Shown here piece by piece: positions 3-11,392 of a stretch of DNA of 11,392 bases. The DNA is taken from contig JBHGNT010001160.1 in NCBI GenBank assembly GCA_043228905.1, positions 1 through 11,392 of the forward strand, read 5' to 3'. The notes beneath the pieces were generated by a model, which saw only the letters and a program-made list of their open reading frames with translations, was not told the DNA's origin and made no database searches. The translations under genes were made by a program, and so were the position numbers. How positions within the stretch are numbered: the first letter of the stretch is position 1; each line of letters begins with the position of its first letter. The DNA comes from Azolla caroliniana. Its lineage: Eukaryota > Plantae > Polypodiophyta.

Positions 3-1883
3 AACGCCCTTTCAGTGCATGATGTGCAATGTTTTCTCAGGTTTGCAAATTTTTATCGAAAATTTATTAAAGATTATTCCAAGGTTGTGCTTCCGCTTAC
101 TCAGCTCACACATAAAGATGAACCATTTATATGGAGTTCAGATGCAACCGAGGCATTTGAAAGCTTAAAACGAGCATTTACAACGGCACCTATCTTAGCA
201 CATGTCGACCCAACAAAACGCTTCATCCTCGAAGCCGATGCATCCGATTTTGCACTAGGGAGTGTCCTCTCGCAGACTGGAGATGATGGACAACTACACC
301 CTGTCGCCTTTCATTCACGAAAGTTTGAAGCTGCAGAGATCAACTACGAGATCCATGACAAAGAGCTTCTTGCAATCGTGGATTCGTTTCAACAATGGCG
401 ACATTTCCTAGAAGGTTCTTCTCAGCAGATCATTGTCTACAATGATCATAAGCACCTGACTTGTTTCCAAAATGCTCGAGTCTTGAGTCGGCGACAAGCC
501 TGGTGGGCGCAATTTTTCACTCACTTTGACTTTATCATCATATATCGCCCTGGGATGCAGCAAGGCAAAGCAGATGCTCTTTCTCAACGCTCTTATATGG
601 AACTTCGTCCAGGGGAACCTGCATTTGAGCATAAAAAACAAATCCTTTTGGGTCCGAATCGATTACAATTAATGGTAGTTAACGCCATAACAACTCTTGA
701 AAATTCCACTCTTCTTGATTCCATTCGAGATCATATGGCCACTGATGAGTTCGCCAAGGATTTTTTGGATCATATCGTCCCGAATCGTGCTTCTTGCAGT
801 TTCAAAAGGTTTTGGTGCAATTCTCACAGTGGTTGATCGATTTACCAAAATGGCACATTTCTTGCCATGTACCAAGTCGATTACTAGTCAAGAGGCGGTT
901 GATCTCGTTATGCGGGAGGTATTTAAGCATCATGGTCTACCGAATGATATTATTAGTGATCGTGGTCCACAATTCATCTCAAAGTTTTGGAAGCACCTGT
1001 TCAAACTTCTCCACATTTCAGTTAAGCTTTCTTCGGGCTATCATCCTGAAACAAATGGCCAAACAGAGCGTACCAACAAGACATTGGAACAATATCTTCG
1101 TTGTTTCATCAACTATCAACAAGATGATTGGGTTGATTTTTTGCACTTGGCGGAATTCGCTTACAACAACTCAGCCCATTCTTCTACAGGATATTCCCCA
1201 TTTTTCGCAAATACGGGTTGTCATCCTCGGTGGACGATGAATGCGCATCCAGAAGTTCCTACCAACCCTGCTGCCGAGGATCGTCTTAGTCGCCTCCAAG
1301 AAATTCAAGCTAACATTCTCCACAATTTGCACGATGCTCAATTTACACACAAGAGGCTTGCCGATCGTCATCGTCTAGACTCCTTAAAAAAGTTCCGCAT
1401 TGGGGATCATGTATGGCTTCTCCAACACAACATCAAGACCACTCGACCTTGCAGTAAATTGGATTACCAACGTTTTGGCCCTTACATGATCACTGGTAAG
1501 ATAAGTGATGTTGCATTTCGTCTTGACCTCCCTCCGCACATGCATCTTCATCCGGTGTGTCATGTATCCCTTTTGGAACCTTATACTACAAGTTCAATTC
1601 CATGCCGTCTTACGACACCCCCACCACCTGTCGAGTTCTTGGACGGGCCTGAATTTGAAGTTGCTGTCGTTCTCGATTCTAAAATCGTGCGCAACAAGTT
1701 TACTTAGTCGATTGGCTAGGCTATACTCCCAATGATCGAACTTGGGAACTTGGCTAGGCAAATCTTTCCAATGCTGCAGAACTCGTCCATGCATTTCATC
1801 GCCAATATCCTTGTAAACCAGGTCCTAATACAAACCCTACGACCCGTGAGACGGGTCGTCAAAGAAGGGGGATAGTGTCATGA
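3..1883 (+). pseudogene. pol: pol remnant: RT C-terminus/RNase H, integrase core, GPY/F motif, chromodomain; internal deletion and frameshifts
   Basis: ORF 15-836 has FANFYRKFI, EADASDFALGSVL, NYEIHDKELLAIV and YRPG..QGKADALS. ORF 697-1707 has VVDRFTKMAHF, SDRGPQF, YHPETNGQTER and RFGPY. The chromodomain starts EFEVAVVLDSK and continues after a frameshift (~1700) as YLVDWLGYTPNDRTWE..*..NLSNAAELVHAFH, ending at TGA 1881-1883 inside the LTR. Confidence 0.93.
1861..1875 (+). other. Polypurine tract (PPT) of element D
   Basis: AAAGAAGGGGGATAG lies immediately before the TGTCA LTR start. Confidence 0.88.
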
Positions 1884-1930
1884 TAACACTCACATCATGC
1901 ATCGAAAGGATCATGACACTCACATTATGA

Positions 1931-1999
1931 CTCGAAAGGATTTGAACCCACGACCTTGTTGTACACATGTCAAATCCTTAACCATTGTATTAATATTCT
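1931..1999 (-). promoter_or_regulatory. Degenerate tRNA-like Pol III type-2 promoter module in U3 of LTR D
   Basis: The minus strand reads TAATACAATGGTTAAGG (A-box-like, 1982-1992) ... AGGTCGTGGGTTCAAATCC (variable loop plus B box, 1938-1948) with tRNA-like spacing. Stems are poorly paired. Confidence 0.6.
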
Positions 2000-2011
2000 T
2001 ATATGTATAGT

Positions 2012-2181
2012 CTCTAGAATATGAAATCTAATATCATAGGAATATTCTATATTACTCTACATTCTAGAATGACCTAGAATATTCTAGAGTGTTCTATACC
2101 ACTAGAACCTTCTAGAATACTCTAGAGATCTTCTAGATTACTCTACATTCTAGGATAACCTAGAATATTCTAGAGTGTTCT
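2012..2181. promoter_or_regulatory. Array of heat-shock-element-like motifs, including a 45-bp direct repeat
   Basis: TTCTAGAA and GAATATTC cores recur. A perfect nGAAnnTTCnnGAAn (AGAACCTTCTAGAAT) is at 2104-2118. The direct repeat is 2051-2095 vs 2137-2181 (43/45). Confidence 0.7.
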
Positions 2182-2346
2182 CTATTAATTATAAATAGGG
2201 ATCTACCACCCATCCCAAACCTAAATTGGTTCAACGCCACTTTGTAGCCTACTCTTTGTAATCCATTTTACGCTTCAATATAATAATTCTCTTTCAATTA
2301 TCTTTCTATCTCTTTTTCTCTCTTTTTCTCTCTCTCAGTCTTGACA

Positions 2347-6500: not shown

Positions 6501-6744
6501 ATTTAGAGATACTACTTTAGTTTTTTTTTTTTTTATCTTTGGCTCGCCCGAAGGCTACAACTCACACAAAGTCATGTTTTATTAGTAGTATATAGTCCAT
6601 CAAGGGGTGTACCGAATGGTACGAGTGAGATACATGCACAGGATGACCTCTAGGAGATATAATGAGACTCGCACCACGTTCCATCATGCAACTTGTAGAC
6701 AGGCTACATTTTACCTTCTTCATCGTCGAAACTGTCATTGTTGT

Positions 6745-6947
6745 CACCGTCACCATCTTCGTCGTCGTCACTTACGGACACAAACCGCCCTTCACCGTCA
6801 CCATCTGCGTCGTCGTCACTTACGGGCACAAACCGCCCTTCACCGTCACCATCTGCGTCGTCGCCACTATCTTCGTCGTCATCACTTATGGGCACAAACC
6901 GCCCTTCATCGTCACCATCTGTGTCGTCGTCACTTACGGTCACAACC
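6745..6947 (-). repeat. In-frame 48-bp minisatellite encoding an Asp/Gly-rich repeat in the PR-RT linker
   Basis: Units start at 6745, 6793, 6841 (48+18 bp) and 6907 (partial). The minus frame gives (DGEGRFVPVSDDDADG)n. Confidence 0.92.
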
Positions 6948-9583: not shown

Positions 9584-9663
9584 GATGTGGTGTACCCGGC
9601 AACGGAAGACCCGATGAGAACCGGATGTGGGGTACCCGGCAACGGAAGACCCGGTGAGAACCG
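9584..9663. repeat. 40-bp tandem repeat x2 in the leader/LTR edge of element A
   Basis: GATGTGGTGTACCCGGCAACGGAAGACCCGATGAGAACCG and a copy at 9624 (38/40). It is cut by LTR F. Confidence 0.9.
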
Positions 9664-10041
9664 GTGTCGTGAAGATTTTCGGCAATAGTGTGAAAATCCC
9701 ATAAAACGTACAAAATCGAGTATGAATCACATAATACAATAATTGTGAAGATAACATTTTAAATAAATTTAAGTACAAAATGATGGAGGTTTCAAATGCA
9801 CTTTATTACACGAGAAACAGACAACTAAATGTCAAGATATGAGGGTATAAAGTTTGTGAAAGGAAAAGAGAAAATTGTGAGATATCCCACATAGGCACGA
9901 CAAATATGGTTCTCATCATATATAAGGTAGAGCAAAAGATATTATCTTTGTGTCTATGTGTGGAGCATAGAGAGTTCAAGGTAACTTGAACTAAGAGTGG
10001 AGGTGGGCTAGCTACTCGTAAAGGGTTTTGGCCAACCAAAA

Positions 10042-10200
10042 CCGGACCGGTGATGGAGCTGGAGACACCGGCGTCCGGCGGCAATCCGGCGATGGCGAGG
10101 CACCAGTAACCGATGGCATCCGGTAACCAACGGCAACCGGCGACGGCATCCGACGAGGCACCGGTAACCGACGACATCCGACGAACCGGTGTCCGGCGAC
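10042..10200. repeat. GC-rich CCGG-dense degenerate repeat island in LTR F
   Basis: About ten CCGG sites. A 27-bp direct repeat sits at 10096-10122 vs 10154-10180. The boundary with the AT tract at 10201 is sharp. Confidence 0.8.
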
Positions 10201-10240
10201 TAGATAAATAAATATATAAATATATATACATATAGAAGGA

Positions 10241-10311
10241 GGACAAGTAAGGATTCGAACCTTGCACCTCCAAGTTAGGAGTCAATTGGCTTACCATTAA
10301 GCCATGCCATT
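10241..10311 (-). ncRNA. tRNA-derived (Arg-CCT-like) pseudo-tRNA / Pol III module in U3 of LTR F
   Basis: The minus strand reads TGGCTTAATGGTAAGC (A box; D-stem GCTT/AAGC), loop CTCCTAA, variable AGGTG, and T-arm CAAGG-TTCGAAT-CCTTA (B box GGTTCGAATCC, 10251-10261). Acceptor and anticodon stems are degenerate, so it is not a functional tRNA. Confidence 0.72.
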
Positions 10312-10783
10312 TAGTTGAATTTATATTTCTATCATTGTACTTTTACGTGTAAATTCTCATACATGAGAGCTAAAATGAGTGACATGGTTATCATGCACCA
10401 CATGTAATACATAAGCGCCAAATGGCAAGCATGCATTTTATGCATGTCTTATACCCTCACATGCATCATATGCATGAGAGGATCTATAAAAGAAGGAAGG
10501 GGGAGGAGAAAAAAGACGTTTTTTTTGGGTTATGAAATTAAGAAGAAGAAATTTGTTATCAAATTGATCGTGTAACTTGTTTCTTAAATCTAAAGATAAA
10601 AAGTTCAATCAATCTCTCTCAATCGTTTAATCTCAACTTCTCTCTTTCCCAATCTATCTTAAGTACTTTCTCGCTAAAGCTTGCGCCAAAGCTTGTACCG
10701 ACTTTGAATCCTTCCGGTCCAGAACCCCGGCGGTTCCGCCTCACGATCCGCGCGTAGTGACGGATCTTCACGACATAATTAAG

Positions 10784-10801
10784 TGGTGAACCCGACGTGA
10801 A
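10784..10801 (+). other. Primer binding site complementary to tRNA-Trp 3' end
   Basis: TGGTGAACCCGACGTGAA is the reverse complement of the plant tRNA-Trp 3' end as I recall it (TTCACGTCGGGTTCACCA). Confidence 0.85.
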
Positions 10802-10842: not shown

Positions 10843-11392
10843 ATGGCGTCCTCAAGCAACCAAGCAGGAGAGCTCGAAAGGATGATGCTAATCGTCGAGC
10901 AAATGATGAGATCTCGGGACAACGACGCGAGCGTGGAAAAGGTTGTCGATCGTGTCGTAGAGCTCGAGGGCCAATTCGATGGAAGGAACGTTACGAAGTT
11001 CCTTGATGCATATAGAAGGGAGATGAATCAAAGGGACGTGTCCGAGGCACGTCAAATCGTAAGCTTCAAGAGAGTTGTCACCAACAACATCCAAAGACGC
11101 ATCATCGAGCTTCAAGAAGGTAAGACAACATGGTCCGAGTTCGAGAAAACGATACTAGCGGAGTTCGTGACTGAAGACTCAACGAGGATGAGTCGACATG
11201 CCCTGATGAAGTGGATAGAGAAGAAGAATAAGAAGATGAGCGTCTCGAGGGTGTACGATGAATTCGACCAGATGTTTAGTCGTCTCCCCAATACGGACCA
11301 AGTGTTGCTTGAAGAGGACAAGACTTTGTACTTCTTGAAGGCCGTGGACATAAAGGATAGACGGGAGTTGGGGACTCTTCTCGAAGATGATA
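10843..11392 (+). CDS. gag: gag (capsid-like) of element F, 3'-partial, >=183 codons; absent from the ORF track because it has no stop in the window
   Basis: ATG 41 nt after the PBS opens MASSSNQAGELERMMLIVEQ...GQFDGRNVTKFLDAYRREM...TTWSEFEKTILAEF...LYFLKAVDIKDRRELG with no stop to the window end. Confidence 0.88.
   Translation, partial: MASSSNQAGELERMMLIVEQMMRSRDNDASVEKVVDRVVELEGQFDGRNVTKFLDAYRREMNQRDVSEARQIVSFKRVVTNNIQRRIIELQEGKTTWSEFEKTILAEFVTEDSTRMSRHALMKWIEKKNKKMSVSRVYDEFDQMFSRLPNTDQVLLEEDKTLYFLKAVDIKDRRELGTLLEDD

What the first reader, a model, noticed from the sequence alone, without database searches (positions are those of the whole stretch)
10038..10311. Predicted ~270-nt Pol III transcription unit inside LTR F: tRNA-Arg-like head, AT spacer, CCGG-rich body, T4 stop
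Seen: the minus strand has consensus A and B boxes with paired D- and T-stems and a CT-CCT-AA loop. A ~35-nt AT tract and the GC-rich repeat island follow. The first TTTT (plus AAAA 10038-10041) falls right at the far edge of that island. Inference: this is a self-contained SINE-like or structured ncRNA gene carried by the LTR, antisense to U3.
Basis: partly seen in the sequence, partly recalled or inferred. Interest (0 to 1): 0.75.

Follow-up and report, generated by a model that had tools for sequence, protein, structure and literature searches.

The report
tRNA-gene promoter kept inside retrotransposon LTRs
A plant jumping gene carries, backwards inside its end-repeat, the promoter boxes of a transfer-RNA gene; relatives keep the boxes and usually a nearby stop signal while losing the RNA's shape, so it likely acts as a DNA docking site that shields the element's own promoter rather than as the 270-base RNA gene first proposed.

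Summary
The tRNA-type A and B boxes (minus strand, 10304-10294 and 10261-10251) are real and beyond chance. They lie in U3 of the 5' LTR (9665-10775) of a Phygy-like Ty3/gypsy element. The 270-nt four-part gene is not supported as a conserved unit. The cloverleaf is broken, the 'Arg' anticodon is variable, and no covariation exists. The CCGG island occurs without the head in 8-9 of 36 related LTR rows, and never with it. The AT 'spacer' aligns with the tract where relatives carry T4/T5, so the usual unit is about 70-100 nt, and F's stop has decayed to TTTATTT. The module itself is lineage-wide: 23 matches in related loci, all in LTRs, in either orientation, about 190 nt before the Pol II TATA box. 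In orthologues picked by flanking DNA, 12 of 13 box positions are invariant against 41% identity in the anticodon arm. A chromovirus LTR in the same window has one too. Best reading: a selected TFIIIC/Pol III docking module, likely a chromatin barrier. No transcript or binding was shown. Pol III LTRs are known in TRIMs (Helenus, Cassandra); the scan noted similar modules in fungal chromovirus LTRs.

The parts
9665..10775 (+). 5' LTR of element F (Ty3/gypsy, Phygy-like), with inverted termini TGTCGTGAAGA...TCTTCACGACA
   Evidence: sequence; loose contig ends at 9665 and 10775; LTR-end and PBS layout shared by related loci
10240..10311 (-). tRNA-derived head (nt 1-73), with broken cloverleaf
   Evidence: found at E=1.1e-11 by a profile built only from other loci
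10294..10304 (-). A box (predicted TFIIIC tauA site)
10275..10281 (-). anticodon-position loop CT-CCT-AA; variable, stem unpaired
10265..10269 (-). variable-loop AGGT motif, conserved together with the boxes
   Evidence: 0.82 identity; not part of the search pattern
10251..10261 (-). B box (predicted TFIIIC tauB site)
   Evidence: no variant at 5% or more listed
10201..10239 (-). AT tract, homologue of the relatives' T4/T5 terminator tract; here TTTATTT at 10212-10206 (predicted weak stop, RNA of about 105 nt)
10042..10200 (.). CCGG-rich, length-variable tandem-repeat island of U3; a separate LTR module
10038..10041 (-). first canonical T4 (back-up stop for read-through); part of the island's edge
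10385..10480 (+). conserved U3 block with RY (CATGCA) repeats and GCCAAATGGC (motif names recalled)
   Evidence: 0.85 identity
10484..10492 (+). TATA box of the LTR's predicted Pol II promoter
10784..10800 (+). primer-binding site (matches a tRNA-Trp 3' end by recall); not complementary to the head
10843..11392 (+). start of gag
   Evidence: PF03732 weak, E=0.006; 95% identical to the 732-aa gag-protease P0001
1938..1992 (-). second A/B-box module, antisense in U3 of the unrelated chromovirus LTR A (1878-2346)
   Evidence: E=1.7e-5; chromodomain piece PF00385, E=2.9e-5

Best explanation
The feature is a tRNA-derived A-box/B-box module inside the U3 part of a coding plant retrotransposon's LTR, whose boxes are conserved while its RNA fold is not, and it likely works as a DNA docking site for TFIIIC and Pol III that keeps the neighbouring Pol II promoter open to use. 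Step 1 (shown): tRNA-like sequence entered the LTRs, probably more than once and probably as a SINE or tRNA-gene fragment (route inferred); it is copied with the LTR. Step 2 (shown by comparison): only the box bases, the AGGT motif and the A-B spacing were kept; the stems and the anticodon drifted. Step 3 (inferred): TFIIIC binds the B box and loads TFIIIB and Pol III. Pol III makes a short unstructured RNA that stops at a T-run behind the head (about 70-100 nt in most families). In F it would stop partly at TTTATTT (about 105 nt) and partly read through the island to the T4 (about 270 nt, a by-product). Step 4 (inferred by analogy with tRNA-gene and ETC barriers in yeast and B2 SINEs in mouse): the bound complex, about 190 nt upstream of the TATA box, blocks silencing from spreading into the enhancer/TATA block. 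In F it stands between the CpG-rich island and that block.
For: Orthologues picked by the flanking promoter block, not by the boxes: box positions 0.96 identity, 12 of 13 invariant; anticodon arm 0.41; acceptor 0.50; U3 core 0.76 (7 rows). L047 lost 11 nt between the boxes and kept both. Within the F family, variants at 5% or more cluster at 10278-10289, and none is listed at 10244-10277. A profile trained on 13 modules from other loci finds 23 matches at E<=1e-3 in 81 loci (10 not used in training). Of these, 22 are in this lineage's LTRs and 1 is in an inserted LTR of another type; none lies in about 307 kb of coding or 56 kb of other DNA. Cloverleaf pairs: 47.9% against 49.3% shuffled; RNAalifold predicts 0 pairs (21 rows). 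Both orientations occur. The midpoint lies 110-224 nt before a TATA box in 15 of 18 modules (mean 190), but 53-612 nt from the LTR start. A T4 lies within 35 nt of the B box in 11 of 18 (background 26%, p=0.002, rows not independent). Four loci carry a second, outward-facing module 75-96 nt after the TATA box. Barrier role of TFIIIC sites: PMC12409998, PMC9540200, PMC8136502 (passages).
Against: No binding, chromatin or transcript data. The module is absent from 21 of 36 related LTR rows and from F's nearest relatives in the gag tree (L007, L001, L003, L004, L009), so it is dispensable. The plant-barrier review names no tRNA or TFIIIC barrier for plants in the passages seen. The TATA distance was searched only 60-330 nt downstream, which bounds its range. 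The 13 training modules were picked by their boxes from LTRs, so part of the enrichment is circular. The loci are metagenome contigs that may merge several copies, and the 7 orthologous rows are about 5 families. The conserved T-run fits real transcription as well as a binding-only role.
Confidence: 0.5

Rival explanations
1. The short Pol III RNA, or the act of transcription, is what matters: an antisense RNA of about 90-105 nt pairs with the U3 part of the element's own RNA, or tunes the Pol II promoter by interference.
For: Terminator-like T4 close behind the B box in 11 of 18 modules; 14 of the 18 modules listed are antisense.
Against: Sense-oriented modules at the same place (L018, L019, L020, L042, L049). 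RNA body neither conserved nor structured.
Confidence: 0.16
2. Neutral remains of SINE insertions that hitch-hike in LTRs; the boxes look conserved because SINEs were selected for them before insertion.
For: Patchy distribution (at least 5 forced changes of the 'none' label), two orientations, several body types, and the same head with other upstream flanks in 6-19 contigs.
Against: In orthologous positions the boxes stayed fixed while the bases between them fell to 41% identity, and the boxes are more conserved than the promoter block. No free-standing match in 56 kb of non-LTR, non-coding DNA (a small sample).
Confidence: 0.12
3. One reading: a self-contained, structured Pol III gene of about 270 nt (head, spacer, CCGG body, T4).
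For: All four parts are present in order; the first T4 is at the island edge; no listed variant at the T4 in X1; head and left block are linked at similar spacing in one X18 contig (275 against 286 nt).
Against: Head and island never co-occur in 36 related LTR rows. The T4-bearing edge is present without a head in L004. Island length is variable and the island does not fold beyond shuffles. The AT tract is the relatives' terminator. A related subfamily in X20 has a T5 just behind the B box.
Confidence: 0.08
4. Landing pad: the module attracts integrases that target TFIIIB/TFIIIC, as Ty3 does, and so shapes nesting.
For: Lead from earlier scan notes on fungal chromovirus LTRs (unchecked). The window is heavily nested.
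Against: No insertion upstream of either module in the window, and no pile-up of loose ends just upstream of the head among the rows shown (tables cut).
Confidence: 0.07
5. The tRNA-derived motifs were re-used as binding sites for Pol II factors and no longer engage Pol III machinery.
For: Steady distance to the TATA box and adjacency to the RY or HSE-like blocks.
Against: Both boxes, their 43-44-nt register (16 of 18) and a T-run are kept together in either orientation, which is the Pol III type-2 layout.
Confidence: 0.07

Closest known systems
Helenus / TRIMp3 (Kojima 2024, PMC10886601; parts 1-4 of 6 read, plus term searches in text and supplement)
   Same: tRNA-derived sequence inside the LTRs, conserved at boxes A and B, with no functional tRNA and no match to the element's own PBS; origin by SINE insertion proposed.
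   Different: Helenus are short non-coding TRIMs, proposed to use the Pol III promoter to make their genomic RNA. Here the hosts are gag-pol-coding elements with a TATA box, the module is mostly antisense and usually has its own T-run. The paper lists Selaginella as the only plant and says that 'not a few' Repbase LTRs resemble part of a tRNA without analysing them.
Cassandra and Ajax (as described in PMC10886601)
   Same: Pol III internal promoter carried in an LTR.
   Different: 5S-derived (type 1) and non-autonomous; in Cassandra it drives the element's own RNA in sense.
tRNA-derived SINEs (SINE2; head-body-tail layout as described in PMC10886601, otherwise recalled)
   Same: A/B-box head followed by an AT-rich tract.
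   Different: No conserved body or LINE-type tail was seen; the module moves as part of an LTR; free copies not shown.
tRNA-gene and ETC-site barriers in yeast and human; mouse B2 SINE boundaries (PMC12409998, PMC8136502; passages)
   Same: B-box-dependent TFIIIC site beside a Pol II promoter; this is what the module likely works like.
   Different: Those serve host domains. Here the site is built into a coding LTR element beside its own promoter; activity untested.
Phygy lineage of non-chromovirus Ty3/gypsy (Neumann 2019, PMC6317226; passages)
   Same: Compact gag-pol with a tRNA-type PBS; the left flank CCGG fits the NCGN target preference; gag-protease relatives in Physcomitrium and Riccia.
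   Different: RT-based placement was not done; the passages seen mention no Pol III module in the LTRs.

Membership tests
tRNA gene | A and B boxes at tRNA spacing | tested here: met
tRNA gene | cloverleaf with paired acceptor and anticodon stems | tested here: not met
   acceptor 1 of 7, anticodon 0 Watson-Crick pairs; ARAGORN 0; Rfam none
Helenus / TRIMp3 | tRNA-derived sequence in the LTR | tested here: met
Helenus / TRIMp3 | short non-coding element (about 0.3-1.3 kb) | tested here: not met
   gag follows the PBS; module-bearing L015, L030 and L043 have long gag and pol frames
Helenus / TRIMp3 | Pol III promoter placed to make the element's genomic RNA | tested here: not met
   antisense in F; the sense U3 modules of L018, L020 and L042 meet a T4 within 14-29 nt
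tRNA-derived SINE (SINE2) | tRNA-derived head with A and B boxes | tested here: met
tRNA-derived SINE (SINE2) | conserved body and 3' tail shared by copies | tested here: not met
tRNA-derived SINE (SINE2) | free-standing dispersed copies with their own target-site duplications | tested here: inconclusive
   no host genome held; 0 matches in 56 kb of other DNA; heads with other flanks in some contigs
TFIIIC-dependent barrier (tRNA gene / ETC type) | intact B box under constraint | tested here: met
TFIIIC-dependent barrier (tRNA gene / ETC type) | TFIIIC occupancy and blocking of silencing | not testable with these tools
   needs ChIP or CUT&Tag and reporter assays
Pol III transcription unit | discrete transcript with start near 10311 and oligo-U end | tested here: inconclusive
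   no RNA holder listed; only contigs of guessed-RNA runs
Phygy (Ty3/gypsy) | NCGN target, tRNA-type PBS, compact internal part | tested here: met
   left flank CCGG (right flank outside the window); PBS; ORF layout of relatives
Phygy (Ty3/gypsy) | placement by RT/RH/INT phylogeny against REXdb | not tested
   F's pol is outside the window; only a gag-protease tree was built

The most novel reading that the evidence does not exclude
Coding LTR retrotransposons of non-seed plants, in at least two distant Gypsy lineages, have repeatedly captured and kept miniature tRNA-type Pol III genes as built-in chromatin barriers, in some families bracketing their Pol II promoter on both sides, as a cis-acting defence against host silencing.
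Probability: 0.3. Interest if true: 0.8.

Novelty: new variant of a known kind. Interest (0 to 1): 0.55.

Why it matters
Pol III promoters in LTRs are described only for small non-coding elements, where they are thought to make the element's RNA, and the Helenus paper argues that autonomous partners must use Pol II. Here coding elements keep both, with the Pol III module in a place and orientation that cannot make genomic RNA. If it is a barrier, it would be a cis-encoded anti-silencing device and a ready test of whether TFIIIC insulators work in plants. Sister families with and without the module give natural controls. These high-copy modules would also inflate pseudo-tRNA calls in such genomes.

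Tried and rejected
No host genome is held, so copy-by-copy tests, F's 3' LTR and free copies could not be examined. An exact 22-nt pattern from the head found 0 matches in metagenome, viral and prokaryote collections; gag searches of viral contigs found no relative. Expression: no RNA holder listed. The three guessed-RNA runs gave 3, 1 and 130 contigs (X20 is probably DNA). The X18 and X19 contigs run through the predicted start into upstream U3; contigs show neither strand nor ends, so this counts for nothing either way. The AT tract was filtered out as a repeat in both lay-downs, so I could not see whether other F copies have a T4 there. Rfam gave no tRNA match for the head, the LTR A module or 10 loci. 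Isotype: phage tRNA matches were weak (best E=0.6) and mixed (Arg, Gln, Trp, Ile, Asn, Pro), and the anticodon-position triplet takes many forms among 21 modules, so no donor tRNA is named. Self-priming was rejected: the head's 3' end does not match the PBS. A link to the PPT-less, tRNA-Arg-site lineage noted elsewhere in this genome was rejected for F: its relatives have a purine tract before the LTR and the module's 3' end is not conserved. The ORF spanning the module (9806-10342, minus) has no Pfam match. One search crashed and was redone; the cloverleaf count was misnumbered and redone. The tree is the quick version, because the careful search did not finish; L049 was left out as too short.

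Full report
Setting. The window is a stack of nested plant LTR retrotransposons. LTR F spans 9665-10775; its ends are marked by loose contig ends in public runs. It is followed by a primer-binding site (10784-10800) and gag, so it is a 5' LTR. The gag is 95% identical to a 732-aa gag-protease, whose more distant relatives are named from Physcomitrium patens and Riccia sorocarpa. The left flank CCGG fits the NCGN preference of Phygy (PMC6317226, passages). The host is a non-seed land plant by inference; moss or fern was not determined, and no genome is held. The family is high-copy and is held by runs labelled with at least three organisms.

Observation. The A box (10304-10294) and B box (10261-10251) are exact matches to the recalled consensus, 32 nt apart. 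A strict pair arose in 7 of 2000 shuffles. The loop CTCCTAA is at the anticodon position. The T stem pairs 4 of 5 and the D stem 4 of 4 only when shifted by one base, while the anticodon stem has no Watson-Crick pair and the acceptor stem pairs 1 of 7. ARAGORN and Rfam do not call it. A TTTATTT at 10212-10206 was overlooked; such interrupted runs are sub-optimal terminators for human Pol III (PMC3141230, passages). The anticodon is polymorphic: CTT replaces CCT in about 10%, 16%, 93% and 64% of depth in X1, X5, X16 and X20 (contig depths, rough).

Relatives. A gag-protease alignment retrieved 81 loci (the best 80 of 132 metagenome matches were kept). A profile built from 13 A/B modules of these loci, without the window, finds F's head at E=1.1e-11 and a second module in the window at E=1.7e-5. 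That second module lies in LTR A of a chromodomain-bearing element. In the loci there are 23 matches at E<=1e-3 in 16 loci, 10 of them not used in training. Of these, 22 lie in this lineage's LTRs and 1 (L014) in an inserted LTR of another type. None lies in about 307 kb of coding or 56 kb of other DNA, against 47 kb of LTR. The training set was picked from LTRs, so only the 10 held-out matches and the two in the window are independent. The module is patchy on the gag tree: F's nearest relatives lack it (quick tree, 39 rows). LTR F looks mosaic, with its left part like L001/L003/L009, its 10213-10500 part like L015/L043/L047/L061/L079, and its end like L001/L007/L011.

What is conserved. Six LTR segments from five loci were found by similarity to F's promoter block and aligned with F. 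All carry the module at the same place. The 13 fixed box positions have 0.96 mean identity (12 invariant), the AGGT motif 0.82, the anticodon arm 0.41, the acceptor 0.50 and the U3 core 0.76. L047 has lost 11 nt between intact boxes. Within the F family, listed variants cluster at 10278-10289 and none is listed at 10244-10277. Across 21 modules, cloverleaf pairs form in 47.9% of cells against 49.3% in shuffles, and RNAalifold predicts no pair. The constraint is therefore on the DNA promoter bases and not on an RNA fold.

The 270-nt model. Of 36 related LTR rows with U3, 15 have a module (two weak: L042, and L046, whose match is probably in U5) and 8 have a CpG-rich island (9 with L004, whose U3 my script cut short). 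None has both; only F does. L004 has the same CCAAAACCGG island edge without a head. F-family contigs skip 52-111 nt inside the island. F's AT tract aligns with a tract that holds T4 or T5 in relatives; 5 of the 7 orthologous rows have a T4 within 35 nt of the B box. Over 18 modules (near-duplicates L061, L049 and L037, tandem second copies and post-TATA modules left out; L019 counted as a miss), 11 have such a T4 against a 26% background. The usual unit is thus about 70-100 nt.

Position. The module midpoint lies 110-224 nt before a TATA box in 15 of 18 cases (mean 190; search limited to 60-330 nt), but 53-612 nt from the LTR start. Of these 18 modules, 14 are antisense and 4 sense. L015, L043, L047 and L079 also carry a sense module 75-96 nt after the TATA box, and L043 and L079 have tandem upstream copies. 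Between module and TATA lie RY repeats and GCCANNTGGC in F-type LTRs and L014, or six heat-shock-like words in LTR A (motif names recalled).

Mechanism. Shown: capture, box-specific conservation, loss of fold, independence from the island, either orientation. Inferred: TFIIIC binding, a short Pol III RNA and a barrier role. [quoted passage not shown] Mouse B2 copies mark methylation boundaries (PMC8136502, title and passages). I put about 0.8 on selection of the boxes after capture and 0.5 on the whole barrier-type model. No expression evidence was obtained.

Known and new. The nearest described case is Helenus (PMC10886601), which is non-coding and proposed to use Pol III for its own RNA. F fails those defining features. 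Ten full-text searches (listings only, except for the papers cited above) showed no description of box-conserved Pol III modules in coding plant LTR elements. The library lacks most subscription papers, Repbase entries were not visible, and the Helenus paper notes that other LTRs hold tRNA-like pieces. Earlier scan notes report A/B boxes in fungal chromovirus LTRs (unchecked). Verdict: new variant of a known kind, interest 0.55.

Noticed in passing
window 1878-2346 (LTR A): The chromovirus LTR has an antisense A/B module (1992-1938) followed by six heat-shock-element-like words before its TATA box.
   Followed up: partly
L015:1205, L043:786, L047:1387, L079:1998: A second, sense A/B module 75-96 nt after the TATA box, so the Pol II promoter is bracketed by outward-facing modules; a weak case in L038.
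   Followed up: partly
L014:3827-4116: An inserted LTR of another type carries the antisense module plus the same RY and GCCANNTGGC block as F; possible exchange or convergence of U3 cassettes between lineages.
   Followed up: partly
window 9665-10775: LTR F looks like a mosaic of three LTR types, suggesting recombination between families.
   Followed up: partly
L001:850-1250, L004:1430-1750, L039:750-950: CpG-rich tandem islands with different repeat units sit at the same U3 position in families without the module.
   Followed up: partly
window 9584-9664: A 40-bp tandem repeat of the minus-strand element into which F inserted; high-copy in runs X1, X5 and X10 but nearly absent in X16.
   Followed up: no
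window 10296-10304: 6-19 contigs per run carry the same head with different upstream flanks; these could be other LTR subfamilies or free SINE copies.
   Followed up: no
window 6743-6945: 48/66-bp tandem repeats between gag-protease and RT of the minus-strand element, encoding acidic repeats.
   Followed up: no
P0002-P0007: Proteins that share only the N-terminal gag part with F and then continue in unrelated acidic sequence; possibly non-autonomous derivatives.
   Followed up: no
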